DNA of 64,000 nt from Clostridia bacterium (GCA_045545295.1 JAZQAO010000036.1:139029-203028); one strand, 5' to 3'. Positions 43,067 to 64,000 are shown, counted from the stretch's first letter. The notes: generated from the letters alone by a model not told the origin. Numbers and translations are program-made.

Positions 43067-43250
43067 ATAGAAAATTGAGTATTCTATCGCGAGGCGCTTC
43101 GTCCTTTTTTTAATTTATGGGAAATTGCGTTTTTTATCGCGAGCAATATTTGTGGGTTTTAAGTTAAGTTTGGACGCGACGTGGGTGAAGCGGCACGCTT
43201 CTTTTTTATTCAGTCGGGACGCGAAATGGGTGAAGCGGCACGCTTCTTCA
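43067..43250 (+). repeat. D-family repeat units (2-3 degenerate copies)
   Basis: GACGCGACGTGGGTGAAGCGGCACGCTTCTTTTTT (43173-43207) and GACGCGAAATGGGTGAAGCGGCACGCTTCTTC (43218-43249) match the core of the 63.6-kb tandem array. The upstream GAAAATTGAG...TATCGCGAGGCGCTTCGTCCTTTTTTT is a diverged unit. Confidence 0.65.
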
Positions 43251-50502: not shown

Positions 50503-50533
50503 AAATTTATATTATTCTGAAAGGATGATTTTT

Positions 50534-51886
50534 ATGGCAAAAACAGCATTTGTGGGATTTGGTGAAGTCAATACTCCCATAGATATTATCATTAAAAAGT
50601 GCAGCGATGCAGCGGCAGCACTTGAGAAAGAGGGACTTGACCTTATAAAGGTGTTCCCCGTAACAGACGATTACGAGGAAAAGGATGTAAACAAGGCGAT
50701 AGAAGCACTTAAGGGACAGGATTTCGACAGCCTTGTAGTTTGTATTGCAGGCTGGATTCCTACACACGCAGTTGTTAAGGTTACAGAGCATTTTCGTGAA
50801 AAGCCTATGGTTCTCTGGGGACTTTGCGGATGGATAGAGAATGACGGCAGAATTGTTACAACAGCAGACCAGGCAGGGACAACTGCAATCAGAAAGACAT
50901 TCTATGACCTCGGATATACATTCCGCTACATATACGATATTATCGGATTACCCTCAAACACAAAGAAAGTAGCTTCATTCTGTAAAGCGGCAGAGGCAGC
51001 TAAAAAGCTTCGTCACGCAAAGGCAGGTATGGCAGGCTACCGTGATATGAACCTTTACGGCACACAGGCTGACGGCCCCTCTCTTAAGAGAGTTGTGGGA
51101 AGCGAAATTGAAACATTTGAAATGCTTGAAATGGAACAGAGATATCAGCGCATTACTGATGCCGAGAAGCAGGAAGTAATTGACAAAGCTATCTCAAAGT
51201 GGCATTTTCTTAAGGAAGCAAAACCGGAAGGCCTTCAGAAAGCTGCAGGCTACTACCTTGCGGTTAAGGCAATCTGCGACGAAAGAGGTTATGATGCAAT
51301 TTCTCTTAAGGACGTTGACGGTATGAAAAAGCTTCTCGGATTCCCGCCTGCACCTATTTTTATGCTTCTTTCTGATGAGGCAAAGCTTTGTACAATCCCT
51401 GAAAATGACTGTCTTGGTAACATTACGCAGCTTATGGTTAAATACCTCACAGGTCAGTGTGCGGCATACCTTGAATTCTATGAATTCTTTACAGACAGTG
51501 TACTTGCAGGTGTTCCCGACTATGTTCCCGCTGAAATCGTAGACGGTGATGTTACAGTTATGCCTGCGGCATTCGGGGAACTTTCAGAGGGTATTCTTAA
51601 CGTAAGCAAGGTTAAGACGGGCGAGCTTACAATGTGTCGCCTTACATGCATTGACGGAGAATATTATATGCACCTTGTAAAGGGTAACGGTGTAACTCCT
51701 CCCAAGTGGGAAGAAGCAGGCTGGACACAGCCTGCACCTCAGCTTCCCGGTCTTAAGATTGAACTCGATGACGTTCCCGCATTCGCAGAAAATGTAATGT
51801 GTCAGCACTATATTATTTCTTATGGCGATAATACAGAGCTTATTGAAAATCTCTGTTATATACTCGGAATTGAAGTTATAAAATAA
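50534..51886 (+). CDS. L-fucose isomerase-like sugar isomerase family protein
   Basis: The ATG at 50534 is 9 nt after GAAAGGA. The N-terminus AFVGFGEVNTP, the ~450 aa size and AYLEFYEF / MCQHYIISYGD resemble FucI/AraA-like isomerases (COG2407 type). Confidence 0.5.
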   Translation: MAKTAFVGFGEVNTPIDIIIKKCSDAAAALEKEGLDLIKVFPVTDDYEEKDVNKAIEALKGQDFDSLVVCIAGWIPTHAVVKVTEHFREKPMVLWGLCGWIENDGRIVTTADQAGTTAIRKTFYDLGYTFRYIYDIIGLPSNTKKVASFCKAAEAAKKLRHAKAGMAGYRDMNLYGTQADGPSLKRVVGSEIETFEMLEMEQRYQRITDAEKQEVIDKAISKWHFLKEAKPEGLQKAAGYYLAVKAICDERGYDAISLKDVDGMKKLLGFPPAPIFMLLSDEAKLCTIPENDCLGNITQLMVKYLTGQCAAYLEFYEFFTDSVLAGVPDYVPAEIVDGDVTVMPAAFGELSEGILNVSKVKTGELTMCRLTCIDGEYYMHLVKGNGVTPPKWEEAGWTQPAPQLPGLKIELDDVPAFAENVMCQHYIISYGDNTELIENLCYILGIEVIK

Positions 51887-51889
51887 TGC

Positions 51890-51930
51890 GGGATGTTAAA
51901 AATGCCCAGAGCACAAAAGGACGATTTGTT
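51890..51930 (+). repeat. A-motif, copy 2
   Basis: GGGATGTTAAAAATGCCCAGAGCACAAAAGGACGATTTGTT, starting 4 nt after the stop of 50534..51886. Confidence 0.5.
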
Positions 51931-51990
51931 AAATGCGGAATTCGGAGTGCGAAGTTCGAAGTGAAGGAAATTTTTGCTGAAGCAAAAATA
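51931..51990 (+). repeat. C-family repeat, partial copy (C4)
   Basis: AAATGCGGAATTCGGAGTGCGAAGTTCGAAGTGAAGGAAATTTTTGCTGAAGCAAAAATA is the reverse complement of the right half of the C copies at 55.2, 57.0 and 59.2 kb. Confidence 0.6.
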
Positions 51991-52016: not shown

Positions 52017-53507
52017 ATGAGTTTATTAATCGGTTGGGCGGAAGAAAGCCTTGTACCTTCAAAAAAGGTTGACCTTGCAGGTCAGTTCTTTGAAAGAATT
52101 TCAGAATATGTTGAATCTGAAATCAGCGTAACTGCTATGGCTGTTGAATCAAACGGCGACCAGATGATTATTGCATCGGTGGATATTGTAAGTATGCCCC
52201 TTAACCTTATTAATATCGCCCGTGAAAAGTTCAGTAAAATCTGTCCCGGTGTTGACCCCCGTAAGCTTATTGTAGGTGCAACACATACACATACGTCATT
52301 ACGTGTTTCAGACCCCGGTGCAGGCACTGCAGGTTTTTCAAGTGCGGTATCGGTGCTTAAAGAATTTTTGCCCGAGGGTAAAGATTATAAAAAGCTTGTT
52401 GAACGAGATGACACAGTTCTCACAATTGAAGAGGGTAATGAGCTTGTAACAGATAAAATTGCCCTTGCCGCAAAAAATGCGTGGGAGAACCGCAAAGAAG
52501 CACTTTATACAAACGAATTCGGAAGAGCGGCAGTCGGTATGTGCCGCAGAGTAAGTTTCCTTGACGGTAGCGCTGAAATGTGGGGCGATACAAGAAGAGG
52601 CGATTTTGTAGCACTTGAGGGTGGAAACGACTCCGGTATTGAGCTTATATATACATTTGATAAGAATAAGAAGCTTACAGGCGTTGTTGCAAATATTGCC
52701 TGCCCTGCACAGATTCTTGAACAGAGAAGCTTTATTTCCGCAGACTACTGGGGAAGAGCAAAGGCAATTATTCGTGAAAAGCTTGGAAGCGATGTGTTTC
52801 TTCTCGGTCTTTGTGGTGCGGGCGGTGACCAGTGTCCCCGTGATCTTGTAAGATGGGTTGATCCCGAAACACCCATTGACGATCCAAATGTGAAACGTCC
52901 CAATCCCGTTAATCGCAAGGCGGATCCTTCGATGTATGACGTCAGTGGATGTAACAAAGCAGGAAAGAGAATTGCCAACGAAATTATTTCTGTGTTTGAA
53001 GAAATCACAGAACTTAAAGGAGAAGCAGTTCTTGAGCATAGAGTAATCGACCTTGACCTTCCGCTTCGAAAGGCGACAAAAGGAGATTACGATAAAGCTG
53101 TAAGAGAGATTGAATACTACATAGAAAAGAATAAGGATAAAGAAAAGTTCGACTTTGAGGATAATGCAAAGATGCACATTTACTCGGGCACTATTGCACG
53201 TTACCGCCGTCAGCAGATGCAGGAAATTTATCCTATTGAAACACATATTGTACGTTTTGGTGACATAGCATTTTCAACAAATCCCTTTGAACTTTTCCTT
53301 GACTTTGGTAACTACATAAAGGCAAGAAGCAATGCAAGTCAGACCTTTATCATTCAGCTTTGCTGTGGCAGTGGCGGATACCTTCCCACCGAAAAGGCAG
53401 AAAAGGGCAGTCACTACAGTGCATATATTTCAAGCGGTAATGTAGGACACGAGGGCGGCGACCTTTTTGCAAGAAAGACAGTAAAAGAAATTAACGATAT
53501 GTTTTAA
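52017..53507 (+). CDS. Neutral/alkaline ceramidase-like protein (paralog 2 of 3)
   Basis: IGWAEESLVP, ISVTAMAVES, VGATHTHTS and FSTNPFELFLDFG. Colinear with 53576..55105 (IGWSRKDVS, MNATHTHCGP, FATNQFELYMDY). Confidence 0.55.
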   Translation: MSLLIGWAEESLVPSKKVDLAGQFFERISEYVESEISVTAMAVESNGDQMIIASVDIVSMPLNLINIAREKFSKICPGVDPRKLIVGATHTHTSLRVSDPGAGTAGFSSAVSVLKEFLPEGKDYKKLVERDDTVLTIEEGNELVTDKIALAAKNAWENRKEALYTNEFGRAAVGMCRRVSFLDGSAEMWGDTRRGDFVALEGGNDSGIELIYTFDKNKKLTGVVANIACPAQILEQRSFISADYWGRAKAIIREKLGSDVFLLGLCGAGGDQCPRDLVRWVDPETPIDDPNVKRPNPVNRKADPSMYDVSGCNKAGKRIANEIISVFEEITELKGEAVLEHRVIDLDLPLRKATKGDYDKAVREIEYYIEKNKDKEKFDFEDNAKMHIYSGTIARYRRQQMQEIYPIETHIVRFGDIAFSTNPFELFLDFGNYIKARSNASQTFIIQLCCGSGGYLPTEKAEKGSHYSAYISSGNVGHEGGDLFARKTVKEINDMF

Positions 53508-53524
53508 AACGGAATGTTAAAAAC

Positions 53525-53564
53525 AAAAAAACTGCGATGTGGATTTCCACATCGCAGTTTTTTT
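53525..53564. terminator. Bidirectional Rho-independent terminator between convergent genes
   Basis: AAAAAAACTGCGATGTGG-ATTT-CCACATCGCAGTTTTTTT: an 18-bp perfect palindrome arm with an A-tract on one side and a T-tract on the other. Confidence 0.85.
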
Positions 53565-53575
53565 GTTTTTAAATA

Positions 53576-55105
53576 TTATTCATATAATTTGTTTAATTCT
53601 TCAAGCGTCGCCTCAACTAATTCCTGACCACCTTCGGGTGAAACAAGGTTGCAGTACATAGATGCACTGTAGCCGTTACCTGCTGCGGCACGCTCTGTTG
53701 CAAGGTAGCTGCCTGCTGCTCTTCCTTCAGGCTGACCGCAAAGCTGAACTATAAAGGTCTGCTCAAAGGGTGAACGTCCCTGAATTCTGTGCTGATAGTC
53801 CATATAAAGCTCAAACTGGTTTGTTGCAAAGGCAATGTTGCCAAGTTTTATAACGTGCATTTCCATAGGAAGCTTCGGGTTTTTTTTCTGCTCTTCGTAG
53901 CGTTTCATAGCTCTGGCGTATCTTCCGCCGGAGGACATAATAACGCTGTTCTGATACATTCTTTCAAGAGGTTCTCCGTCCGTTACGAAAGGCTTTTTAA
54001 CAACGTTCTTTTCGTTTTCTTCTACACAGAACTGATATTCTTCGTCTGTAATAAGCCTTTTTGAAAGCTCAACTGTTTTAATGGTGTGTGCCACGGGAAG
54101 GTCGTTAAACTTTTCTTTCTGTGTCCAACCATAAACCTCGTCAAAGGCATCAGCAATTCTTTCACCTATATCAAGGCGGCGGTATCGTTCATAAGTTTCG
54201 CTTACGATTTCAGGCATTTTGTAGTCTGCGTATTTAAGGCGGAAGCGTCTTTCCTCTGCCTTTGAATAGTGAAGAATTCTCGGTGAAAGGTCACCTGCAG
54301 CGGCACACTGTGAAAGGATATAGATGTCACCATACCGCTTTGAAATCTGTTCACGGACATCTGCCCAGAAATCTGCTGTAAGGCAGTTATCCATTTCGGA
54401 ATTCTGCGAGGGACAGGGCACATTTATAATTGCACCTGTAAGCTTTTCATCCTTATCAAAAGTGAAGAGGAAGTTTGCAAAGGGGTCTGTACCTGCCTCA
54501 TAATGGCTGAACATTCTATCTTTTGTACTGCCGTACATCTGTGCGTGACCGCCTACAAACTGTGCAGAGTTAAAGTGTGCGTTTTCGGGACGCTTTGAAA
54601 GGTCATCAAAATACACAACTCGTCTTGAATGTGCAACAGTTGCAAAACCGTAACCGTAGGAAACGTAGCCTTCTTTTCTTTCTGTGAAGGACTCTACGAT
54701 TCCTTCTGCGGTAGTTTCGATAAACCACTTTCTGTATTCGCCGTTTGATTTTATTTCAACACCCTCGTGAGGAACTTCTGAAATGGGCTTTCCTGCCCAT
54801 ACCTTGTCTTCTTCAAAAAGGCAGGGTCCGCAGTGGGTGTGGGTAGCATTCATTATAATTTTAGTTGTATCAATTTCGGGATTAAGCTCGCTTACTCTTG
54901 CACGTACAAGGTCGAGGATACCTGCATTGATGCTTACTGTATCAACCTGTACAAAAATAACATAGTCACCGTTGTTTTCAAGTGTAAGAATATTTACAAG
55001 GATAGGGTCAAGAACACCCTGTGAAACTCTTAACTTGAACTGACCTGTGATTGGGAGAGGTTCATTCGTGGAAACATCTTTTCTTGACCAACCAATTTTT
55101 AACAT
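53576..55105 (-). CDS. Neutral/alkaline ceramidase-like protein (paralog 3 of 3)
   Basis: The ATG at 55105 is 9 nt after AAGGAG; the track start is the TTG at 55114. See the motifs listed for 52017..53507. Confidence 0.55.
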   Translation of the reverse strand: MLKIGWSRKDVSTNEPLPITGQFKLRVSQGVLDPILVNILTLENNGDYVIFVQVDTVSINAGILDLVRARVSELNPEIDTTKIIMNATHTHCGPCLFEEDKVWAGKPISEVPHEGVEIKSNGEYRKWFIETTAEGIVESFTERKEGYVSYGYGFATVAHSRRVVYFDDLSKRPENAHFNSAQFVGGHAQMYGSTKDRMFSHYEAGTDPFANFLFTFDKDEKLTGAIINVPCPSQNSEMDNCLTADFWADVREQISKRYGDIYILSQCAAAGDLSPRILHYSKAEERRFRLKYADYKMPEIVSETYERYRRLDIGERIADAFDEVYGWTQKEKFNDLPVAHTIKTVELSKRLITDEEYQFCVEENEKNVVKKPFVTDGEPLERMYQNSVIMSSGGRYARAMKRYEEQKKNPKLPMEMHVIKLGNIAFATNQFELYMDYQHRIQGRSPFEQTFIVQLCGQPEGRAAGSYLATERAAAGNGYSASMYCNLVSPEGGQELVEATLEELNKLYE

Positions 55106-55153
55106 AATAGACAACTCCTTATATTTTAGTTTTAAATTTAATGTGTTTGTAAA

Positions 55154-55290
55154 GTTCGAAATGTAAAATTCGAAATGATGGTCGGTTTTCCCTTGTGTGA
55201 AAACCTTTTATCCTTATAACTGGAAACAAGGATTTTTGACTTGTCAAAAATCTTCATTCACTTCGAACTTCGCATTTCGCACTTCGAACT
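55154..55290 (-). repeat. C-family intercistronic hairpin repeat (C1)
   Basis: GTTCGAAATGTAAAATTCGAAATGATGG...GGTTTTC-N8-GAAAACC...GATTTTTGAC-TT-GTCAAAAATC...CACTTCGAACTTCGCATTTCGCACTTCGAACT. The termini are imperfect inverted repeats. Confidence 0.7.
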
Positions 55291-55317
55291 AAATTGATTT
55301 TTAATTTTTCAATCTGT

Positions 55318-56919
55318 TTAATCAATCTCGCCGCCTGCGGCTATTATGGAAAGTTCCCTTCTTGTAAGAACTCTGCCGTATTTATCGTCCTCAATTATAT
55401 CGGGTTTAACGATAAATTTACCTTTCTGCAGGTGACAAAGCTCAATAATTTTATTGAAATACTCAAGAACTTTTGCATTTCTCTTGAAATCGTTTCTGTA
55501 AAGCTCACCGTCGATAACTGCACGAAGGTAAATCATCTGCCACTTTTTAAGATTGCGGATTTCTTCGGGAAGTGATGCATCAACTTCAACAATTGCCTTT
55601 TCAATTTCGGGAATACCTTCGGGATTGTCGATGGGATAACGGTGTCCCGGCTCAAATCCGCGGTGGAGAGTTTTTTCCATAGCAAAGATTGCATCGTGTG
55701 CTTTCTGAAGAAGCTCGCCCTCAAGTCCGAATTCGTAAGAAAGATATTCTTTTATAGTATCGGATGCACTCTGTCCGTCGCGGTATAAGCGAAGCATAAC
55801 CACCTTGTTGATTTCTTCGTAGAAACCTTCAGAATAGGGCCAACCGCCTGCAAGCTTGTCACCGTCACGGTCCCAAAGCTCCTGCAAAAGTGCGGGGATG
55901 GGGTTAGAACCGTAACCGCCCCAGGGAAGAATATCGCACATACTGATTTCGGGAAAACCGAGGATAGGTCTTCTCATACCCTTTTCAAAGGCGTAACGCT
56001 GATACTGGGGTTCTGCAACAAGGTACTTACATTCGCTGAGTCTGCCTTCGTCCATAACTTTATTCATCATCTCAAACTCAACATCGGTTTCGGTAAACGT
56101 ACCGAACTGCCAGAGTGAAAGAACAAGGTCTGTATTGGGCATATATTCCTTAACCATGGGGATAATTGCTTCAACGGTCTTTATATAGCCGTTACCGCCC
56201 CAGGGAGCACACTTACTGCAACTGCAACCGCCCTCGTCATAAGGTGTGATTGAAAGGTAGTCAAGCTGAAGGTCCTTGAAGGTTTCAAACCAGCTTCTGC
56301 GGTATTCAAGGATTTTTTCAAGTCCGCCCGGTTTGTTGGGGCAGATTTCTACATGGTAGTGTCCCTGAAGTACATTTACATATCCGTCGTGGCCCGGTGT
56401 CCAGTCAGCACGAAGCTGTTCGGGACTTGTTCTGAACGCTTCGTTTGAAATAGTGGTCATCATAATTTTAAGACCAATGGATTTGGCGTAACGCAGGATT
56501 TTCTTAAGACGCTCTGCATATTCCTTGCCGTCCTCCATACTGTCAAAATAGTACATATCAAACCACATGCGAAGCATATTTGTACCCCAGAGGGCAATAT
56601 CGTCAATATGGCGGTATATTTCTTCAAGGGGGGCACATTCGTAGTAGTTGTGATTATGGGATGCAAAATACATTGCACAAATTTCTTTTTTTGACTTGAA
56701 TGTACCGTTTTCGATTTTCGGATTTCGTATAAATCTTCCAAGGGTGTTGAGAAGCTCGGAATAAGAGCCTGCACTGATTGCACCGTCCTCAATTTTTCCT
56801 TCAAGTTCGGAAAGAGAATCGTCGATTAAAAGGGTAATGTCGTATTTTCCTTTAAGTCTGTCTTCTGCAATTCTTGCAATGTTAGAAAGGGTTTTGTCCG
56901 CTTTGTTATAAGTAATCAT
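55318..56919 (-). CDS. Hypothetical TIM-barrel glycosidase-like protein with a CxCxxC motif
   Basis: MMTTISNEAF (possible NE acid/base) and YDEGGCSCSKCAPWGG (a Cys cluster reminiscent of the Zn site described in GH42 enzymes). RBS AAAGGAG. No signal peptide. Confidence 0.35.
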   Translation of the reverse strand: MITYNKADKTLSNIARIAEDRLKGKYDITLLIDDSLSELEGKIEDGAISAGSYSELLNTLGRFIRNPKIENGTFKSKKEICAMYFASHNHNYYECAPLEEIYRHIDDIALWGTNMLRMWFDMYYFDSMEDGKEYAERLKKILRYAKSIGLKIMMTTISNEAFRTSPEQLRADWTPGHDGYVNVLQGHYHVEICPNKPGGLEKILEYRRSWFETFKDLQLDYLSITPYDEGGCSCSKCAPWGGNGYIKTVEAIIPMVKEYMPNTDLVLSLWQFGTFTETDVEFEMMNKVMDEGRLSECKYLVAEPQYQRYAFEKGMRRPILGFPEISMCDILPWGGYGSNPIPALLQELWDRDGDKLAGGWPYSEGFYEEINKVVMLRLYRDGQSASDTIKEYLSYEFGLEGELLQKAHDAIFAMEKTLHRGFEPGHRYPIDNPEGIPEIEKAIVEVDASLPEEIRNLKKWQMIYLRAVIDGELYRNDFKRNAKVLEYFNKIIELCHLQKGKFIVKPDIIEDDKYGRVLTRRELSIIAAGGEID

Positions 56920-56938
56920 AAAAAATCTCCTTTAATAA

Positions 56939-57137
56939 GTTCGAAATGTAAATATATCCCTCCACCAAGCTACGCTTGGTCCCCCTCCCTTTAGGCAAGG
57001 GAGGCTGCAAAATTCGAAATGATGGTAGTTTTTCTCTCACAAGAAAAACTTTTATTTATGTGAAATTTTCAAATAAGGATTTTTGCTGAAGCAAAAATTT
57101 ACCTTCACTTCGAACTTCGCATTTCGCACTTCGAATT
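56939..57137 (-). repeat. C-family repeat (C2) carrying a 56-bp nested insertion at 56953-57008
   Basis: Same termini as C1. The segment TATATCCCTCCACCAAGCTACGCTTGGTCCCCCTCCCTTTAGGCAAGGGAGGCTGC interrupts GTAAA|AATTCGAAATG. Confidence 0.7.
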
Positions 57138-57145
57138 AATGATTA

Positions 57146-59104
57146 TTAATTCTTTAAAATAAGATAATACATTGAACGAGATTCACTGCCGAGAGAAATA
57201 GTAAGTTTACCATTCTCATACTTTGTGGGAACCATACCGATATAGAATCCTTCGGGACTGATACCCCATACTTCATAAGTGGAGATGGGTGTTTCAATTT
57301 CGATTTCCGCCTTGATTGATTCTATCAGAACGGGGGCTTCTCCGTATTCTATCATCTGGTCACCAACGAATTTTGCACCAGTATTTTGTGCTCTGCCCAC
57401 GGTGGTGAGAAGAATATTTGAAGATTCTGTTATTTTTTCGTCTGTAAGGGAACTCATTGCAATAACTGCAAAATCTGTTTCTGCCGTTACCTTAACGCCT
57501 GAAAGGTCGATTGTGCCGTTCTTTGCAAGGAAGCCGTAAGCACATTTTGTGCCGTCTGTGTCAATGTAGCCGTAATTCTTTTCACGGCTGATGAAAAGCT
57601 CACCTGTATCTGAAAGAATATTTCCGTCAACCTTAACGGGCTTATCCTCTGCGAATTTGTCAAAGCTGTATTCAGAATATACTCCGTGACGCTCGATAGC
57701 ATTAGCAAGGTCGGCATCGTTAAATTTTGTTTTTGAAATGTGGCTGTATGTCTTAAATTCGTTAGCCTTTTTAACATCTCCACGTCTTGTCATAATAGCT
57801 GCGTGATAGAAAAGACCAAACTTTGCGGGGTCATTCCAAGTGCTGAAAATACCCTGACGGTAGGGAGTTCCACCAATCTTTTCGGAATAGATTTCTCTGC
57901 CGAGAATGTCCATTCTTTCAAGGCGTGCACTGTATGAATATGTGTGGATTGCATAGCCGTTCCACCCTTGTAAAAGTCCCAATGCCGCAGTGTAAAGAAC
58001 ACCGTCTGCACGATATTCGTTAGGCCAGGGAACGTCCCACTCGGAAATATATGTAGGCTTGTTTTCTGCACTCATATAAGCGCCTGTGAGAAGATATGTT
58101 TCATTTGCTTGAGTTACGGACTTGTTTTCGCAACACTTCCTGAATTCTTCCCAGCAACCCCATGTGTAGTAGTAGGGATGTGTGTCGATGTAATCTGCAC
58201 AAAGCTGTGTCTTTACGTTTGCAGGCACGATAGAGTGGTTTGTTCCGTTGAGAGGAATTTTAATTCCGATTTCACGCATATAGGAAAACATTTCCTCGTA
58301 ATACTTTTCCTGAATATATATTTTGAAATCAACGATAGTTTCGTTTTCGCTATCGTTTTTAAAGTCAAAATCGGCTGATGTCTTGTCGTAGCCGTTTTCC
58401 TTGAGCCACTTATCGAAAAGGGCAAGGATTTTTGTGTTGTAAGGCTCGGGGAAAGGGAACTTGAAATGGAATGAGAAGAGGTCACTTTCATTACAAACCT
58501 CTGCAAGAACGAATATGGGGTCGTCGCAGTAACGAAGATCTGTGTAGGGGTTTTCGTGTGTCCATAAATCCTTACAGAGTTTTTTCTGCAGGTCAATCAG
58601 TGTCTCGTCAAAATAGTTGACAGGCTTTGCAGAATCGCCCAGAGCTTTTGCATTTTCAACGCCCTCTTCCGCACGGAAACGTCTGTATGTGAGCATATCC
58701 ATATAGCAATAGATACCCTCTTTTTTAAGACAGTAAATAAGGTAGTCAAGTCTGTCCATGCTTTCGGGGTCAAGAGTGGCTCCTGTCATTTTCTTACCTT
58801 TTGTAAAAGCAAAGATGTTTGGAGTGTGCCACTCGGCGTCAAGCTGGTGGAATCTTACAAGGTTAAGACCGATTTTACTGAGTCTTTTTGCAAGGATTTC
58901 TGCATAGTCGTGTTCAGGAAAGCATCCCCAGCCATTGAAGTTTGTTCCCCAGAACTTCACCTTTGTGCCGTCCTCGAAAACGAAATCTCTGCCGTCAACC
59001 TTAAGAAAACCGTGCTTACCTGCAGGCTTTTCATCCTCAAACATAAAAGATATGTCAATGGGTACATCATCGTGATAAAACGGATATGGAATAAATTCGG
59101 TCAT
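57146..59104 (-). CDS. Clan GH-A (GH5-like) glycoside hydrolase, tandem paralog A
   Basis: KFWGTNFNGWG, LNLVRFHQLD, EVCNESD (NE acid/base) and YISEWDVPW (candidate nucleophile E). No signal peptide. RBS AAAGGAG. Confidence 0.5.
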   Translation of the reverse strand: MTEFIPYPFYHDDVPIDISFMFEDEKPAGKHGFLKVDGRDFVFEDGTKVKFWGTNFNGWGCFPEHDYAEILAKRLSKIGLNLVRFHQLDAEWHTPNIFAFTKGKKMTGATLDPESMDRLDYLIYCLKKEGIYCYMDMLTYRRFRAEEGVENAKALGDSAKPVNYFDETLIDLQKKLCKDLWTHENPYTDLRYCDDPIFVLAEVCNESDLFSFHFKFPFPEPYNTKILALFDKWLKENGYDKTSADFDFKNDSENETIVDFKIYIQEKYYEEMFSYMREIGIKIPLNGTNHSIVPANVKTQLCADYIDTHPYYYTWGCWEEFRKCCENKSVTQANETYLLTGAYMSAENKPTYISEWDVPWPNEYRADGVLYTAALGLLQGWNGYAIHTYSYSARLERMDILGREIYSEKIGGTPYRQGIFSTWNDPAKFGLFYHAAIMTRRGDVKKANEFKTYSHISKTKFNDADLANAIERHGVYSEYSFDKFAEDKPVKVDGNILSDTGELFISREKNYGYIDTDGTKCAYGFLAKNGTIDLSGVKVTAETDFAVIAMSSLTDEKITESSNILLTTVGRAQNTGAKFVGDQMIEYGEAPVLIESIKAEIEIETPISTYEVWGISPEGFYIGMVPTKYENGKLTISLGSESRSMYYLILKN

Positions 59105-59123
59105 AAAATTTCTCCTTTAATAA

Positions 59124-59203
59124 GTTCGAAATGTAAAATTCGAAATGATGGTGGGTTTTCTCCGAAAAGAAAACCTTTAATTCCGCATTCCGCATTTCGC
59201 ATT
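59124..59203 (-). repeat. C-family repeat, short variant (C3)
   Basis: GTTCGAAATGTAAAATTCGAAATGATGGTGGGTTTTCTCCGAAAAGAAAACC...TTCCGCATTCCGCATTTCGCATT. It abuts the stop codon of 59202..61154. Confidence 0.65.
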
Positions 59204-61154
59204 AGTTTTTAACTATCAAGTAATACATTGACCTTGACTCTGTTCCGAGAGAAATAGTAAGTTTACCATCCTCATACTTTGTGGGAACCATACCGATGTA
59301 GAAACCTTCGGGACTGATACCCCATACTTCATAAGTGGAGATGGGTGTTTCGATTTCAATTTCTGCCTTGATTGCTTCAATAAGAACGGGTGCTTTGCCG
59401 TAGTCCATCATCTGGTCGCCGACGAACTTGGCGTCAGTATTTTGTGCTCTGCCCACAGTGGTGAGAAGAATATTTGAAGATTCGGTGATTTTTTCATCTG
59501 TAAGTGAACTCATTGCAATAACTGCAAAGTCTGTTTCTGCTGTCACCTTAACGCCTGAAAGGTCAATAGTACCATTCTTCGCAAGGAAGCCGTAAGCACA
59601 TTTCGTGCCGTCTGTGTCAATGTAGCCGTAATTCTTTTCACGGCTGATGAAAAGCTCACCCGTATCGGAAAGGATATTGCCGTCAACCTGCTGAGGCTTT
59701 TCATCTGCAAACTTGTCAAAGCTGTATTCTGAATATATACCGTGCTTTTCTATTATCTCTGAAATATCGGGCTTGTTAAACACGGTTTTTGAAAGATGGC
59801 TGATAGTTTTGAATTCGTTTGCCTGCTTTACGTCGCCACGTCTTGTCATAATTGCCGCATGGTAGAAAAGACCGAACTTTGCAGGGTCGTTCCAGGTGCT
59901 GAAAATACCCTGGCGGTAAGGTGTGCCGCCGATTTTTTCGGAATATATTTCTTTACCGAGCATATCCATTCTGTCAAGACGGGCAGTGTATGAATATGTG
60001 TGGATTGCATAGCCTGACCAGCCGTGAAGAAGACCTATTGCAGCAGAGTAAAGAACACTGTCTGCACGGTATTCGTTAGGCCATGGAACATCCCACTCGG
60101 AAATATATACGGGTTTGTTTTCTACACTCATACAAGCAATCTTATCAAGGTATGATTCGTTTGACTGTGTTATGGATTTATTCATACAGCATTTGCGGTA
60201 TTCTCCCCAGCTCCAGTCATAGTAATATGTATGACCGTCAGTGTAATCTGTTCCAAGCTGTGTTTTTACGTTTGCAGGAAACATCGCCCAATTTGTTCCG
60301 GTGATAGGGATTTTTATTCCGATTTCACGCATGTAGGAAATCATATCTTTGTAATGGGTTTCGTGAAGATACATCTTGAATGCAAGAAGTGTTTCATCCT
60401 CTTTACTTGTAAGGTCAATATCGGCGGATGTTTTATCGTAACCGTTGTCTTTGAGCCACTTGTCAAAAAGATTAAGCATTCTTGTCTGATACGGCTCGGG
60501 GAAGGGCATTGCCCAGTAGTGCGAGAAGCAGTCGCTTTCATTGCAAACCTCTGCAAGCACAAAAACCGGATCATCGCAGTAACGTAGTCCCGTATAGGGG
60601 TTTTCGTGTGTCCATAAGTCCTTACAGAACTTTTTCTGAAGCTCAATAAGCTTTTCGTCAAAATAATCAAGGGGCCTTGCCGCATCAACAAGAGCTGCCG
60701 CATTTTCCACACCTTCCTCTGCACGGAATCTGCGGTATGTGAACATATCCATATAGCAGTAGATACCCTCTTTTTTAAGGCAATAAATAAGGTAATCAAG
60801 CCTGTCAATACTCTCGGGGTCAATCTGTCCGCCTGGCATTCTCTTACCTTTTGTAAAAGCAAAAATATTGGGAGTGTTCCACTCGGAATCAAGCTGATGA
60901 AATCTTACAAGGTTAAGACCGATTTTGGAAAGCCTTTTTGCAAGCTTCTCGGCATAGTCGTGCTCGGGAAAGCATCCCCAGCCGTTAAAGTTCGTTCCCC
61001 AGAATTTTACCTTTGTGCCGTCCTCAAAAACAAAATCTCTGCCGTCTGTCTTAAGAAAACCGTGCTTTCCTGCAGGTTTCTCATCCTCAAACATAAATGA
61101 AATATCAATCGGGACATCATCGTGAAAAAACGGATATGGAATAAATTCGGTCAT
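59202..61154 (-). CDS. Clan GH-A (GH5-like) glycoside hydrolase, tandem paralog B
   Basis: The ATG at 61154 follows AAAGGAG; the track start at 61199 adds 15 codons inside the promoter region. Colinear with paralog A along its whole length. Confidence 0.5.
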   Translation of the reverse strand: MTEFIPYPFFHDDVPIDISFMFEDEKPAGKHGFLKTDGRDFVFEDGTKVKFWGTNFNGWGCFPEHDYAEKLAKRLSKIGLNLVRFHQLDSEWNTPNIFAFTKGKRMPGGQIDPESIDRLDYLIYCLKKEGIYCYMDMFTYRRFRAEEGVENAAALVDAARPLDYFDEKLIELQKKFCKDLWTHENPYTGLRYCDDPVFVLAEVCNESDCFSHYWAMPFPEPYQTRMLNLFDKWLKDNGYDKTSADIDLTSKEDETLLAFKMYLHETHYKDMISYMREIGIKIPITGTNWAMFPANVKTQLGTDYTDGHTYYYDWSWGEYRKCCMNKSITQSNESYLDKIACMSVENKPVYISEWDVPWPNEYRADSVLYSAAIGLLHGWSGYAIHTYSYTARLDRMDMLGKEIYSEKIGGTPYRQGIFSTWNDPAKFGLFYHAAIMTRRGDVKQANEFKTISHLSKTVFNKPDISEIIEKHGIYSEYSFDKFADEKPQQVDGNILSDTGELFISREKNYGYIDTDGTKCAYGFLAKNGTIDLSGVKVTAETDFAVIAMSSLTDEKITESSNILLTTVGRAQNTDAKFVGDQMMDYGKAPVLIEAIKAEIEIETPISTYEVWGISPEGFYIGMVPTKYEDGKLTISLGTESRSMYYLIVKN

Positions 61155-61268: not shown

Positions 61269-62054
61269 ATGAAAGCTACGTTTGAAAACAATGATGTATT
61301 GCTTTGTGCGGAGAGTGGGAGAAGTATGCCGGGTTACCCGATGCAGTTTCATACTCACGCAGAAATTATATATATTATATCGGGAACTGTGACTATAACG
61401 GTTGACGGGATAAAACGCACGCTGAAAGCAGGACAGATGAGTATTTGCTTCCCCTATTCTATGCACGAATATGAAGAAAGTCCCGATTCAAAAATATTAC
61501 TTGTGCTTTTTTCAGCAAGTGCGACAGGTGTTTTTGAGCAGGATTTACTTACGAAAAAACCCGTTGTTCCTTATATTGAGGACGGGACGGTGCTTTACGC
61601 TACTCTTTGTAAAATTGTTGATTTTAAGAAAAAAGGCAAGGAGTACGAAAAAATTGCAATGGCATATCTTTGTGCCGCGGTGGGGGAAATACTGTCACAT
61701 CTTTCCCTTTATGATATTGAAAGCACCGACACGGGCACAATTCAGAAAATTCTGATATACTGTACCGAAAATTTCCGTGACAGCGATATGTGCCTTGACA
61801 AGGTGGCGAAAAATCTTTTTATCAGCAAAAGCTATATCTCCAAAATTTTTGCAAAAAAGCTTAAATGTAATTTCCGTGAATATATAAACTCTCTGCGTGT
61901 TAATGAAGCAAAATCACAGCTTGAGGGAACAGATTTCAAGATAATTGACATTATGGAAAACTGCGGATTTAAAAATCAGAGCAGCTTTAACCGTGTGTTT
62001 TTTGAAGAGTGCAAAGTAACGCCGCGGGAATACAGAAAAGAGAAGAAAAAGTAA
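61269..62054 (+). CDS. AraC-family transcriptional regulator (cupin-like N-terminal domain + two HTH units)
   Basis: HTHAEIIYIISGTVTITVDG is cupin-like. C-terminal VAKNLFISKSYISKIFAKKL and IMENCGFKNQSSFNRVFFEECKVTPREYR. RBS GGAGGGA. Confidence 0.75.
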   Translation: MKATFENNDVLLCAESGRSMPGYPMQFHTHAEIIYIISGTVTITVDGIKRTLKAGQMSICFPYSMHEYEESPDSKILLVLFSASATGVFEQDLLTKKPVVPYIEDGTVLYATLCKIVDFKKKGKEYEKIAMAYLCAAVGEILSHLSLYDIESTDTGTIQKILIYCTENFRDSDMCLDKVAKNLFISKSYISKIFAKKLKCNFREYINSLRVNEAKSQLEGTDFKIIDIMENCGFKNQSSFNRVFFEECKVTPREYRKEKKK

Positions 62055-62092: not shown

Positions 62093-62183
62093 AAAAACAT
62101 AAAATTATTCTGTCATTTGCGGTATGGGCGTTTTTAACATCCCATCCAGATTGGATTTTGTCCAAAAGGTTAGAATCTGTCTC

Positions 62184-62245: not shown

Positions 62246-63268
62246 ATGGAAAAAAAGTGGGGACTTTTAGTTCATCTTGGTCGTAATATGTGGGGCGACC
62301 TTAGGGCACAGACAGAGGTTCATTTCGATATGGATGTATGGAATGACTTTGTTGACCATTGTGAGGCTAACGGACTTAATATGATTATTATGGACGTTGG
62401 TGAGGCTGTCGAGTGGGAAAGCCATCCCGAGCTTTCAATCAAGGGTGCATGGAGTAAAGAGCTTGTTAAGAGCGAGGTTTTAAGACTTCGTGAAAAGGGT
62501 ATCGAGCTTATTCCCAAGCTCAACTTCTCTAAGACACACGATGCGTGGCTTGGTGTTTATTCAAGAATGGCTTCAACACCCGAATATTACAAGGTGACAA
62601 AAGAATTAATCGAGGAAGTTTACGAAATGTTCCTTCATCCCTCAATCATACATATCGGTATGGACGAGGAAAACTGGAAGCATGCTACAGAAGGTGACAG
62701 ATCAGTTATTATGTTCCGTTCAAGTGCTCTTCAGGTTAATGATACAAACTATTTTATTGAATGTGTAGAAAACCTCGGTGCAAAATGTCATATGTGGCAT
62801 GATCCTTACTGTAACGTAAAGGAAGAAGATGCGGAAAAAATCAAAAAATCCGTTATTCCCGAGGTTTGGATGTACTATTCATACCTTAAAGAAAACTGGA
62901 CACTTATTTCCGAGCAGGACGATGAAGTAAAGGATTTCTACGCAACAGAATTTGTTCGCCGTTACGGTTACACAATCGAATATGTTGAGGAATCACCCTC
63001 TGTATTAAACGCAATCAAGCTTCTTGAAAAATTCTTCGAGGAAAAGAGACATTTCTTCCTTGCAACAAGTAACCTTTACATAAAGAACTGCGAAAAGGAT
63101 GCTATAGAATTTGTAAGAAGAAATAACCCTGACCTTTCACTTCTTGACGGTATGATTGGTGCACCCTGGGGCAGAATGTGGCCCGACAGAAAAGAGCTTT
63201 TGTGGGAAGCGGTTGAGCTTGTGGGTAAGGCAAGAAAACAAGCAGAAGAAATAATTGTGGGATGTTAA
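62246..63268 (+). CDS. Small GH20-like TIM-barrel protein (340 aa)
   Basis: The ATG at 62246 is 9 nt after AAAGGAG. WGLLVHLGRNMW, ELIPKLNFSKTHDAW and IHIGMDEENW (an H-x-G-x-D-E-like block) echo the motifs of 18417..20852. Confidence 0.4.
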   Translation: MEKKWGLLVHLGRNMWGDLRAQTEVHFDMDVWNDFVDHCEANGLNMIIMDVGEAVEWESHPELSIKGAWSKELVKSEVLRLREKGIELIPKLNFSKTHDAWLGVYSRMASTPEYYKVTKELIEEVYEMFLHPSIIHIGMDEENWKHATEGDRSVIMFRSSALQVNDTNYFIECVENLGAKCHMWHDPYCNVKEEDAEKIKKSVIPEVWMYYSYLKENWTLISEQDDEVKDFYATEFVRRYGYTIEYVEESPSVLNAIKLLEKFFEEKRHFFLATSNLYIKNCEKDAIEFVRRNNPDLSLLDGMIGAPWGRMWPDRKELLWEAVELVGKARKQAEEIIVGC

Positions 63269-63300
63269 AAAGCTCCAGAACGCAAAACGAATATCGTTTT
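63259..63300 (+). repeat. A-motif, copy 3
   Basis: GGGATGTTAAAAAGCTCCAGAACGCAAAACGAATATCGTTTT. It overlaps the last three codons and the stop of 62246..63268. Confidence 0.5.
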
Positions 63301-63576: not shown

Positions 63577-63975
63577 GCAACGTAAACTGAGGTTTTACGT
63601 TGCTTTTTTTCCTTATAGGAATTTGCGTAATTTTATTCGCGTGAAGCTATGTTCGACATTTGCAGGTGCGCGACATGGGTGAAGCGGCACGCTTCTTTTT
63701 TCTGCAAAGGAAATTGAGCAAAGTAATACGCGTGAAATTATGTTCACACTTTGCACGTGCGCGACGTGGGTGAAGCGGCACGCTTCTTTTTTTCTGTAAA
63801 GGAAATTGAGCAAAGTAATACGCGTGAAATTATGTTCACACTTTGCAGGTGCGCGACATGGGTGAAGCGGCACGCTTCTTTTTTACTGCAAAGGAAATTG
63901 AGCAAAGTAACACGCGTGAAATTATGTTCACACTTTACACGTGCGCGACGTGGGTGAAGCGGCACGCTTCTTTTT
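63577..63975 (+). repeat. Tandem array of ~4.3 units of 91-92 bp (D family), each with a GC hairpin plus T-run
   Basis: The core GCGCGAC(A/G)TGGGTGAAGCGGCACGCTTC starts at 63668, 63759, 63851 and 63943. Unit 0 (63577-63667) has a different hairpin, AAGCAACGTAAA...TTTACGTTGCTT. The array ends near 63975. Confidence 0.85.
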
Positions 63976-64000
63976 ATTTGGGGTGACAAAGATTATTGGC

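What the first reader, a model, noticed from the sequence alone, without database searches (positions are those of the whole stretch)
55154..59203. C-family TTCGAA-rich hairpin repeats occupy every intercistronic gap of a minus-strand glycosidase operon
Copies at 55154-55290, 56939-57137 and 59124-59203 fill the gaps between 59202..61154, 57146..59104, 55318..56919 and 53576..55105. Each ends a few nt from the next gene's RBS: ...CATTTCGAACTTATTAAAGGAGA in two cases, with a longer spacer before AAGGAG at C1. A fourth, partial copy (51931-51990) lies after a + gene in the opposite genomic orientation, so it has the same orientation relative to transcription.

Each copy has imperfect terminal inverted repeats (AGTTCGAAATG... 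/ ...CACTTCGAACT) and internal perfect hairpins (GATTTTTGAC/GTCAAAAATC; GGTTTTC/GAAAACC). The arrangement is analogous to REP/BIME or BOX elements, which modulate mRNA stability or polarity, but the sequence family is unfamiliar to me.
Basis: seen in the sequence. Interest (0 to 1): 0.6.

Follow-up and report, generated by a model that had tools for sequence, protein, structure and literature searches.

The report
Gene-less heptad-armed palindromes between operon genes

Summary
The window holds three intercistronic copies (55152-55290, 56939-57137, 59122-59203) and one half copy (51932-51989).

They belong to a family of about 86 loci (135 half-units) in this 2.0-Mb uncultured ruminant-gut Clostridia genome. 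The unit is 60 nt: four or five heptads (A-R-T-K-C-G-A), then ATGAWGG, then a 9-bp AT-rich hairpin. Units usually sit as inverted pairs and fold into a 30-35-bp stem.

- **Position and orientation:** copies lie between a stop codon and the next ribosome-binding site. Thirty of 37 assignable copies share one orientation relative to transcription.
- **Not operon-specific or essential:** other strains and sister species have 9-30-nt gaps at all three sites.
- **No database match:** Rfam has no match, and the genome's RAYT-like transposase is not flanked by this family.
- **Link to a gene-bearing form:** one copy elsewhere in the genome (contig C36:87638-88133) carries a PF05635 gene between the same arms and hairpins. 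Of 24 homologues of that gene from several phyla, 23 are flanked by inverted 7-nt-periodic arrays.

Best reading: these are gene-less miniatures of an intervening-sequence-type selfish cassette. RNase III processing or mRNA stabilisation is inferred and was not tested. How the element moves is unknown.

The parts
55152..55290 (-). C1: full two-hairpin element between ORFs 55318..56919 and 53576..55105. Its 5' half is 55231-55290 (minus strand: heptad arm AGTTCGA AGTGCGA AATGCGA AGTTCGA AGTGAATG plus hairpin GATTTTTGAC/GTCAAAAATC). Its 3' half is 55152-55205 (hairpin GGTTTTC/GAAAACC plus arm).
   Evidence: genome contig C36:194180-194318. Sense fold -47.3 kcal/mol, z -6.5. Absent in L007, L011 and in strains of run X1.
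56939..57137 (-). C2: full two-hairpin element between ORFs 57146..59104 and 55318..56919. Its 5' half is 57078-57137 and its 3' half is 57006-57047. The distal arm heptads at 56939-56950 are split off by a nested insert.
   Evidence: Sense fold -75.2 kcal/mol, z -8.1. Absent in L007 (junction AAAAACTGA|TAAAGGAGATTTTTTATG) and in a strain of X1.
56951..57005 (.). Nested GC-rich insert of about 55 nt inside the 3' arm of C2 (GCAGCCTCCCTTGCCTAAAGGGAGGGGGACCAAGCGTAGCTTGGTGGAGGGATATAT on the minus strand). It is not part of the family.
   Evidence: It forms its own two hairpins in the fold. Metagenome word depth is very high over this bin.
59122..59203 (-). C3: short form with two arms sharing one hairpin (GGTTTTCT/AGAAAACC), between ORFs 59202..61154 and 57146..59104. 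Its first triplet, TAA, is the stop codon of the upstream gene.
   Evidence: Sense fold -23.2 kcal/mol, z -3.4. Absent in strains of X3 and X11 (junction AAC TGA TAAAGGAG). A 7-nt indel (+AAATTCG) occurs at 59135 in X1.
51932..51989 (+). C4: solo half-unit (arm AATGCGG AATTCGG AGTGCGA AGTTCGA AGTGAAGG plus hairpin AATTTTTGC/GCAAAAATA) between the plus-strand ORFs 50525..51886 and 52017..53507. It reads in the sense orientation.
   Evidence: (I1, I2, I5). Conserved at the same site in L011.
53576..61154 (-). Host operon of four large ORFs (59202..61154, 57146..59104, 55318..56919, 53576..55105). The first two are tandem paralogues. A bidirectional terminator lies at 53517-53572, and a divergent AraC-type regulator at 61269..62054.
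   Evidence: (D1, D3, D5). The fold of the 533-aa product is GH20/GH89/GH84-like. No sense-strand terminator-like site falls inside the elements.

Best explanation
The four copies are gene-less miniature members of a lineage-restricted family of heptad-armed palindromic insertions.

**Unit.** The basic unit is 60 nt: four or five heptads (A-R-T-K-C-G-A), then ATGAWGG, then a 9-bp AT-rich hairpin. Two units in inverted orientation, arms outward, make the usual element. It is about 136 nt with two hairpins, or 82-99 nt with one shared hairpin.

**Full form.** One copy in the same genome (contig C36:87638-88133) has the same arms and hairpins around a 121-aa PF05635 gene. PF05635 is the four-helix-bundle family named 23S rRNA intervening-sequence protein and is Avd-like. 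This is the anatomy of ORF-bearing rRNA intervening sequences. The window copies are what remains when the gene is missing.

**What is shown.**
- The elements are insertions at the TA-rich junction between a stop codon and the next ribosome-binding site.
- They are gained and lost between strains and species.
- They change length by whole heptads.
- They sit mostly in one orientation relative to transcription.

**What is inferred.** Because they are co-transcribed with the operon, the RNA folds into a 30-35-bp imperfect stem capped by one or two hairpins. This is the kind of stem that RNase III cuts in intervening sequences. I therefore expect cleavage between cistrons, or at least stem-loop-protected mRNA ends, and hence a modest change in relative cistron stability.

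**What is unknown.** The enzyme or process that copies the element to new sites is unknown. I regard any effect on the operon as a by-product of a selfish element, not as its purpose.
For: **Family and anatomy.** There are 135 half-units at 86 loci, and the consensus is AATTCGAAATGCGAAGTTCGAAATTCGAAATGAAGGAAGATTTTCGC-TGAA-GCGAAAATC. The hairpin is kept through paired changes: columns 45-54 read CG 32 / TA 23, and columns 46-53 read GC 34 / TA 20. That is 55-56 of 58 canonical pairs, against 29-43 in shuffles.

**Location.** Of the 86 loci, 62 lie in codirectional gaps, 12 in convergent gaps and 5 in divergent gaps. In 12 of the 62 codirectional cases the element abuts or supplies the upstream stop codon.

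**Insertion polymorphism.**
- C1 and C2 are absent in L007, and C1 is absent in L011.
- C1, C2 and C3 are each absent in strains in metagenome runs X1, X3 and X11.
- The element at C42:28384 is absent in X2 and X4.
- Heptad indels occur: +7 nt and -21 nt.

**Orientation.** The TGCG-rich arm is 5' on the sense strand in 30 of 37 cases (p = 2e-4). All six cases where gene strand and GC skew disagree follow transcription.

**Gene-bearing copy.**
- The ORF matches PF05635 at E = 8.8e-28.
- Its two halves score 62.5 bits (the best of all 135) and 58.0 bits against the family profile.
- It is the only PF05635 gene in the genome.
- The same cassette sits at the same aspS junction in three other species.
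- The four nearest species without it have an ordinary short stop-to-ATG gap there (about 20-40 nt).

**Generality.** Of 24 loci with homologues of this protein, 23 have lag 7 as the best periodicity in both flanks, against 0 of 120 controls. Twenty-one of 24 have at least 75% inverted complementarity, against 2 of 120 controls. The loci come from Clostridia, Bacteroidia, Flavobacteriia and Peribacteria.

**RNA side.**
- The sense folds have z-scores of -3.4 to -8.1.
- The sense strand is more stable than the antisense strand in 23 cases against 14 (Wilcoxon p = 0.04).
- An RNase III gene is present.
- There is no sense-strand terminator-like site in the elements.
Against: - No RNA data show processing or any stability effect.
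- No target-site duplication could be resolved. The junctions are consistent with TA or TAA, or with none, and filled and empty alleles usually differ in neighbouring bases too.
- The PF05635 protein has no known catalytic or mobilising activity. Its link to the miniatures is by shared arms and hairpins only.
- Several genomes rich in miniatures show no matching cassette in their (incomplete) assemblies: G001, G015 and JAZPYX.
- In-register pairing shows no G-U excess on the sense strand, 70 against 64. The thermodynamic basis of the orientation bias is therefore weak.
- Many sites are shared with relatives whose flanks are 75-95% identical, so much of the family is old and not recently mobile.
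- No 23S rRNA is in the assembly, so presence in rRNA could not be checked.
Confidence: 0.62

Rival explanations
1. REP/BIME-type elements: extragenic palindromes mobilised by a RAYT (IS200/IS605-like Y1 transposase) acting on single-stranded hairpins.
For: The elements are high-copy, extragenic and palindromic, often in inverted pairs, with no clear target duplication and apparently precise absence in other strains. The genome has a Y1_Tnp gene of RAYT-like length (290 aa) at C24:134536-135405.
Against: That gene is flanked by GGGGACTGTCCCC-type palindromes, not by this family, and the nearest family member is about 4 kb away. There is no conserved GTAG-type tetranucleotide at the hairpin foot. 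The arms are heptad arrays, unlike REPs. The only gene found enclosed by the family's arms is PF05635. Orientation follows transcription rather than the GC-skew proxy for replication direction: 6 of 6 discordant cases.
Confidence: 0.08
2. Classical MITE: an internally deleted DDE-transposon derivative with terminal inverted repeats, moved in trans by a Tc1/IS630-like transposase that duplicates TA.
For: The termini are inverted (TAARTKCGAA ... TTCGAAYTTA). The junctions are compatible with TA or TAA duplication. Presence/absence polymorphism is seen.
Against: Within 6 kb, no pair of outward-facing halves encloses a transposase gene. The duplication is not demonstrable. The arms are internally repetitive with unit-wise length changes, which is unusual for transposase-binding inverted repeats. 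The orientation bias relative to transcription is not expected for cut-and-paste insertion.
Confidence: 0.1
3. Dedicated cis-regulatory RNA modules (intercistronic stabilisers, processing sites or attenuators) maintained by selection for operon expression.
For: The elements sit between stop codon and ribosome-binding site. The orientation bias is 30 of 37. The sense RNA is more stable than the antisense RNA. The hairpin is preserved by paired changes. Elements cluster in some operons. Many sites are conserved across species.
Against: All three gaps of this operon exist without the element in other strains. Copies also lie in convergent and divergent gaps and carry nested foreign inserts. Arm length varies freely. 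The hairpin covariation is largely between three sub-families, so there are few independent events. No sense-strand terminator is present.
Confidence: 0.15

Closest known systems
ORF-bearing intervening sequences (IVS) of 23S rRNA genes (Coxiella burnetii, Leptospira; S23p / PF05635)
   Same: Terminal inverted repeats form a stem of about 30 bp with a PF05635 gene in the loop. This is the anatomy of the full copy at C36:87638-88133. They are regarded as selfish, sporadically distributed insertions, and the stem is an RNase III substrate (PMC4990558; PMC11270868).
   Different: The copies here lie between protein-coding genes, not in rRNA. The window copies have no gene. The arms are explicit heptad arrays. 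There are about 86 copies per genome. RNase III cutting was not tested, and the rRNA genes are missing from the assembly.
REP / BIME / REPIN elements of Enterobacteria and Pseudomonas
   Same: High-copy extragenic palindromes, often as inverted pairs in operon gaps. REPs there are known to protect upstream mRNA (my own knowledge of malE-malF).
   Different: There is no GTAG motif. No RAYT gene is flanked by the units. The unit is a heptad array plus a hairpin. The partner gene is PF05635.
BOX, RUP and SPRITE repeats of Streptococcus pneumoniae
   Same: Modular, small, non-coding repeats in Firmicutes intergenic regions that fold into long stem-loops.
   Different: No sequence relationship was seen, although no direct comparison was run. 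The module logic differs: boxA-B-C there, against arm-hairpin-(hairpin)-arm here. No heptad periodicity is described for those families, to my knowledge.
Intergenic heptamer direct repeats (for example TAACTGA arrays of Beggiatoaceae, cyanobacteria and Bacteroidetes; PMC4679880)
   Same: 7-nt-unit arrays placed just upstream of start codons, variable in copy number, of unexplained origin.
   Different: Those are described as direct arrays, with a single inverted case noted among 170 sets. That paper's text does not contain the terms 'helix bundle' or 'intervening'. Here the arrays come as inverted pairs around hairpins.

Membership tests
REP/BIME (RAYT-associated) | Imperfect palindrome of 20-40 nt with a conserved 5' tetranucleotide (GTAG-like) at its foot | tested here: not met
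   The column profile of 72 full half-units shows a heptad array plus ATGAWGG before the hairpin, and no GTAG.
REP/BIME (RAYT-associated) | A RAYT (Y1 transposase) gene flanked by the same repeats | tested here: not met
   The Y1_Tnp gene at C24:134536-135405 is flanked by GGGGACTGTCCCC palindromes, with no family member adjacent.
REP/BIME (RAYT-associated) | High-copy, extragenic, often in inverted pairs | tested here: met
   There are 86 loci, 79 of them outside ORF calls, and 49 inverted pairs.
MITE (DDE-transposon derivative) | Terminal inverted repeats | tested here: met
   The termini are TAARTKCGAA ... TTCGAAYTTA, and the arms are complementary over about 35 nt.
MITE (DDE-transposon derivative) | Target-site duplication of fixed length | tested here: inconclusive
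   Filled/empty comparisons fit TA or TAA, or none. Flanking bases also differ between alleles.
MITE (DDE-transposon derivative) | Autonomous partner with a transposase between the same ends | tested here: not met
   The only gene directly enclosed by outward-facing halves is PF05635. The assembly is only 79% complete.
IVS-type cassette (23S rRNA intervening sequence with PF05635 ORF) | Long terminal inverted repeats that form a stem | tested here: met
   The arms of the gene-bearing copy are.
IVS-type cassette (23S rRNA intervening sequence with PF05635 ORF) | PF05635 ORF in the loop | tested here: not met
   This is met only by the full copy outside the window (E = 8.8e-28). The four window copies are gene-less, so they are filed as derivatives, not members.
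IVS-type cassette (23S rRNA intervening sequence with PF05635 ORF) | Inserted in a 23S rRNA helix | tested here: not met
   All copies lie in mRNA intergenic regions. The assembly has no LSU rRNA.
IVS-type cassette (23S rRNA intervening sequence with PF05635 ORF) | Excised from the transcript by RNase III | not testable with these tools
   An RNase III gene is present.
Any Rfam family | Covariance-model match | tested here: not met
   Only a tRNA reaches gathering score in the window. At E <= 1 there are only spurious microRNA and sRNA (mostly miRNA-hairpin) hits, nearly all on the terminator at 53517-53572.

The most novel reading that the evidence does not exclude
PF05635 four-helix-bundle proteins would be the dedicated partners of inverted heptad arrays. 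The protein, known as a pentameric Avd-like ring, would read the 7-nt units and promote copying of its own cassette. It would also act in trans on gene-less miniatures, moving them into stop-codon/RBS junctions. This would be a class of mobile element with no canonical transposase. RNase III would remove the stem from the transcript, so the insert behaves as an unspliced 'intervening sequence' of operon mRNAs. The idea would link rRNA intervening sequences, scattered bacterial heptamer repeats and these operon-gap palindromes.
Probability: 0.2. Interest if true: 0.85.

Novelty: new variant of a known kind. Interest (0 to 1): 0.6.

Why it matters
- **For annotation.** The long 'structured' intergenic regions in these gut Clostridia operons are repeat insertions, not riboswitches or operon-specific regulators. 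Some stop codons, and even C-terminal residues (the aspS tail NANAE*), are supplied by the element.
- **For biology.** The shared arms and hairpins tie a gene-less operon-gap repeat family to the PF05635 '23S rRNA intervening-sequence protein' cassette. Inverted heptad arrays around that gene recur in several phyla.
- **If the tie is functional.** It would give a testable handle on three old loose ends: what the intervening-sequence protein does, how intervening sequences spread, and why heptamer repeats are over-represented next to bacterial start codons.
- **As a natural experiment.** Strains with and without the insert at the same junction allow a test of how a 30-bp intercistronic stem affects polycistronic mRNA.

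Tried and rejected
- **Rfam.** Gathering and E-value scans gave nothing relevant.
- **Regex census.** A regular-expression search for half-units failed because it was too strict. It was replaced by iterated nhmmer. The whole-element profile became strand-symmetric, so half-unit profiles were used instead.
- **RAYT hypothesis.** The Y1 transposase is present but is not associated with this family.
- **Transposase between outward-facing halves.** None was found.
- **Target-site duplication.** Orthologous loci, metagenome contigs and 93 elements in related MAGs gave no clean filled/empty pair with identical flanks.
- **G-U strand asymmetry as proof of RNA-level selection.** The in-register count is unbiased, 70 against 64. 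Only the arm-type asymmetry and a modest MFE difference remain.
- **Wider distribution.** A 20-nt degenerate pattern found the family only in ruminant-gut uncultured Clostridia MAGs. The 11 hits in other phyla are single occurrences without the family's repeat architecture, several inside coding sequence (for example FEIRNDG), and look like chance.
- **RNA evidence.** Two metatranscriptome runs hold only scattered low-depth contigs of the operon.
- **23S rRNA check.** The assembly has no LSU rRNA.
- **Co-occurrence of miniatures and a matching cassette across the genus.** This is inconclusive because the MAGs are incomplete.
- **Terminator function.** No sense-strand terminator-like site falls in the elements. 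One antisense-strand site lies at 55184-55205.

Full report
**1. The observation**

On the minus (transcribed) strand, C1 begins TTAGTTCGAAGTGCGAAATGCGAAGTTCGAAGTGAATGAA. It continues with a perfect hairpin (GATTTTTGAC AA GTCAAAAATC), an A/T-rich spacer, a second hairpin (GGTTTTC ACACAAGG GAAAACC) and CGACCATCATTTCGAATTTTACATTTCGAACTTTA.

C2 has the same plan plus a foreign GC-rich insert of about 55 nt in its 3' arm. C3 is a short form in which two arms share one hairpin. C4 (51932-51989) is a single arm plus hairpin between two plus-strand genes.

C2 and C3 both end ACATTTCGAACTTATTAAAGGAGA 6-7 nt before the next ATG. The repeat finder recovers all of this (families D7, D13, D18 and pairs I1, I2, I5). 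The ORF layout is as stated.

**2. What the unit is**

The window is contig C36:139029-203028 of a 2.02-Mb, 60-contig, 40.8% G+C assembly. Iterated nhmmer showed that the whole element is nearly strand-symmetric, so I modelled the half.

The half-unit profile finds 135 half-units at 86 loci. The consensus of 72 ungapped units is AATTCGA AATGCGA AGTTCGA AATTCGA AATGAAGG AA GATTTTCGC TGAA GCGAAAATC. Heptad positions 1, 3, 5 and 6 are almost invariant, giving A-R-T-K-C-G-A.

Forty-nine loci are inverted pairs with arms outward. These have either two hairpins (about 136 nt) or one shared hairpin (82-99 nt). The rest are solo halves or composites interrupted by other repeats.

The hairpin is preserved through paired changes:
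- Columns 45-54 read CG 32 / TA 23.
- Columns 46-53 read GC 34 / TA 20.
- That is 55-56 of 58 canonical pairs, against 29-43 in shuffles.

Most of this covariation separates three sub-families (TTTTCGC, TTTTTGC, TTTTCTC), so the number of independent events is small.

**3. Where the elements sit**

Of the 86 loci, 62 are in codirectional gaps, 12 in convergent gaps, 5 in divergent gaps and 7 inside my crude ORF calls.

The left end is almost always TAA-(A)T[GT]CGAA and the right end TTCGAA[CT]TTA. In 12 of the 62 codirectional cases the element abuts or supplies the upstream stop codon, as C3 does (AAC TAA TGCGAA). The 3' end commonly lies a few bases before a GGAG-type ribosome-binding site.

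Elements cluster. Several operons have most of their gaps filled, for example C42 13.8-18.9 kb, C48 28.7-34.5 kb and C36 84-88 kb. The window operon is therefore not special.

**4. Orientation**

Almost every pair is asymmetric: one arm is rich in TGCG heptads and the other in TTCG heptads.
- In codirectional gaps the TGCG-rich arm is 5' on the sense strand in 30 of 37 assignable elements (binomial p = 2e-4).
- Agreement with local GC skew is only 24 of 38.
- All six elements where gene strand and skew disagree follow transcription. Three of these six are the window copies, which are not independent of one another.
- Sense-strand RNA is predicted to be more stable than antisense in 23 cases against 14 (Wilcoxon p = 0.04).
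- A position-by-position count shows no G-U excess on the sense strand, 70 against 64. The thermodynamic argument is therefore weak and I do not lean on it.
- There is no sense-strand terminator-like site in the elements. One such site lies on the antisense strand (55184-55205). Polarity in the wrong orientation is thus a possible, untested reason for the bias.

**5. The elements are insertions and are dispensable**

*Orthologous operons.*
- L007 lacks C1 and C2. Its junction is AAAAACTGA|TAAAGGAGATTTTTTATG, with the same ribosome-binding site and start as the window.
- L011 lacks C1.
- L007's copy of C3 carries a different nested GC-rich palindrome.

*Metagenome contigs.*
- C1 is replaced by 12-30 nt (55105>55318, run X1).
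- C2 is replaced by 9 nt (56921>57143, run X1).
- C3 is replaced by 2 nt (59119>59204, runs X3 and X11), giving AAC TGA TAAAGGAG.
- X11 also holds a form with only one of the two paralogous genes and no element.
- The element at C42:28384-28620 is likewise replaced by 20 nt in X2 and X4.

*Arm length changes by whole units:* +AAATTCG at 59135, and a 21-nt difference between G000 C17 and L089.

*Old insertions also exist.* Many sites are shared with relatives whose flanks are only 75-95% identical, so part of the family is old.

*Target duplication is unresolved.* Junctions fit TA or TAA, or none, and filled and empty alleles usually differ in adjacent bases as well.

**6. Distribution**

The full element matches 9 of 19 genomes of the same genus and none of 12 from other genera of the order. 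A degenerate 20-nt pattern scan of 185,579 species genomes found the family only in uncultured Clostridia MAGs from sheep, goat, yak, roe deer and similar guts. Some of these are labelled Oscillospiraceae or Acutalibacteraceae. The 11 hits in other phyla are single occurrences without the family's repeat architecture, several inside coding sequence, and look like chance.

**7. The link to a gene-bearing form**

I checked this independently.
- At C36:87638-88133 a complete arm plus hairpin is followed by a ribosome-binding site and a 121-aa ORF. A second hairpin plus arm then follows in inverted orientation.
- The ORF matches PF05635 (23S_rRNA_IVP) at E = 8.8e-28. It is the only PF05635 gene in the genome.
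- Its two halves score 62.5 bits (the highest of all 135) and 58.0 bits against the family profile.
- No other gene is directly enclosed by outward-facing halves.
- The same cassette sits at the same junction in three other species (L111-L113). That junction lies between aspS and a conserved 437-aa gene.
- The four nearest species without the cassette have an ordinary short stop-to-ATG gap there (about 20-40 nt) (L138-L141).
- In cassette-bearing genomes the last codons and the stop of aspS (…DRNANAE*) are themselves heptad-derived.

The gene-bearing form is therefore an insertion of the same kind, at the same kind of target, as the miniatures. The A/T-rich spacer between the two hairpins of the 136-nt form (…TCTTTGTTTAAATAAAAAG|G…) resembles the outer ends of the gene region of the full copy (…TCTTTAAAAAGG… and …TAATAAATAG|A…). 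This fits an internal deletion but does not prove one.

**8. Generality of heptad arms around this gene**

For 24 loci encoding homologues of the protein (51-97% identity), I measured periodicity and inverted complementarity in the 140 nt on each side. The loci come from Clostridia, Bacteroidia, Flavobacteriia and a Peribacteria MAG.
- Lag 7 is the best lag in both flanks in 23 of 24 loci, against 0 of 120 control window pairs.
- Inverted complementarity of at least 75% over 24 nt occurs in 21 of 24 loci, against 2 of 120 controls.
- The heptad sequence differs between lineages (AATGCGA, AGTGCAA, AACGCAG, AATGTAA, AATTGAG, TAATGAA and others).
- Some loci are orthologous, so the independent count is nearer 18.

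Other, more distant PF05635 genes in relatives have different flanking repeat patterns.

**9. Literature**

- Intervening sequences of 23S rRNA have terminal inverted repeats forming a stem of about 28 bp. RNase III cuts this stem in the middle, and some carry the S23p/PF05635 ORF in the loop (PMC4990558).
- The domain is called functionally uncharacterised (PMC11270868) and is homologous to Avd of diversity-generating retroelements (PMC10053308).
- Intergenic heptamer arrays upstream of start codons have been described without any connection to this gene (PMC4679880).
- My searches found no paper linking the two. These are full-text word searches of open-access papers only.

**10. How it most likely works**

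*Shown.* This is a high-copy, lineage-restricted, palindromic insertion family with unit-wise length variation, presence/absence polymorphism, a preferred position (stop codon to RBS) and a preferred orientation. Its ends are shared with one PF05635 cassette.

*Inferred.* The miniatures are internally deleted or gene-less derivatives of that cassette. When transcribed within the operon they form a 30-35-bp imperfect stem. The cell's RNase III gene is present, and its product probably cuts or at least binds this stem, leaving structured ends on the neighbouring cistrons. The net effect on expression is small enough to be tolerated.

*Unknown.* The copying mechanism is unknown. The genome has a RAYT-like Y1 transposase and one reverse transcriptase, but nothing ties either to the family.

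**11. The operon itself**

The four proteins have no Pfam, NCBIfam or PDB sequence match. The 533-aa protein belongs to a family of more than 600 unnamed proteins. An AlphaFold model built on 33 homologues (pLDDT 91.9) resembles GH20, GH89 and GH84 hydrolases, with TM about 0.6 and about 10% identity. 'Glycosidase operon' is therefore plausible by fold for that gene only.

**12. Limits**

- Gene calls are my own longest-ORF calls.
- The assembly is 79% complete.
- Metagenome contigs are short and break at repeats.
- The earlier notes of this scan were treated as leads. The ones I relied on were re-tested here.

Noticed in passing
window 55318-56919 (minus strand), also 53576-55105, 57146-59104 and 59202-61154: Four large operon proteins have no Pfam, NCBIfam or PDB sequence match. 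The 533-aa one heads a family of more than 600 'hypothetical' proteins, with paralogues in this genome. Its model (pLDDT 92) has a GH20/GH89/GH84-like fold, so it may be an undescribed glycoside-hydrolase family. It sits next to a divergent AraC regulator (61269..62054) and a sugar-isomerase-like gene (50525..51886).
   Followed up: partly
window 57146-59104 and 59202-61154: These are tandem paralogues, 73-87% identical in nucleotide sequence over the repeat blocks found. Copy number varies between strains and species: L008, L011 and a form in run X11 have a single gene.
   Followed up: partly
window 56951-57005; L007 about 2372-2440: Unrelated GC-rich palindromic inserts are nested inside family members: GGGAGGGGGACCAAGCGTAGCTTGGTGGAGGG in C2, and GTAGGGGACGGCC...GCCCCTAC in L007's C3. 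Similar 'GGGGACCGCTTGCGGTGGATGAGGTG' pieces occur elsewhere in the genome.
   Followed up: partly
window 63605-63980, 43157-43246: Tandem 91-92-nt repeats contain AAGAAGCGTGCCGCTTCACCCATGTCGCGC. This is a second repeat family of the genome, apparently the ~93-nt terminator-associated family reported by earlier notes of this scan.
   Followed up: no
window 51890-51917, 62116-62143, 63258-63286: A third short repeat (GGGATGTTAAAAATGCCCAGAGCACAAA) lies next to C4 and elsewhere. Genome-wide it often flanks the heptad elements and a 'TTCAGAACGGACAAACTGAAC...CGAGAGGTGAAGTTTGTTCGTAGCAAA' module.
   Followed up: no
window 53517-53572: A perfect 27-nt inverted repeat with T-runs on both sides lies between convergent genes. 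It is a bidirectional intrinsic terminator and the likely 3' end of the operon.
   Followed up: partly
G000 C36:88134-88180 (L023), outside the window: In the cassette-bearing genomes examined (G000, L137), the last codons and the stop codon of aspS (…DRNANAE* in G000, …DRSQNAE* in L137) are encoded by heptad-like sequence. Related species without the cassette end …ERVKE* or …DRHATEE*.
   Followed up: partly
G000 C24:134536-135405 and C19:45920-46459, outside the window: A RAYT-like Y1 transposase is flanked by GGGGACTGTCCCC palindromes, and there is a single reverse-transcriptase gene. Neither is linked to the heptad family.
   Followed up: partly
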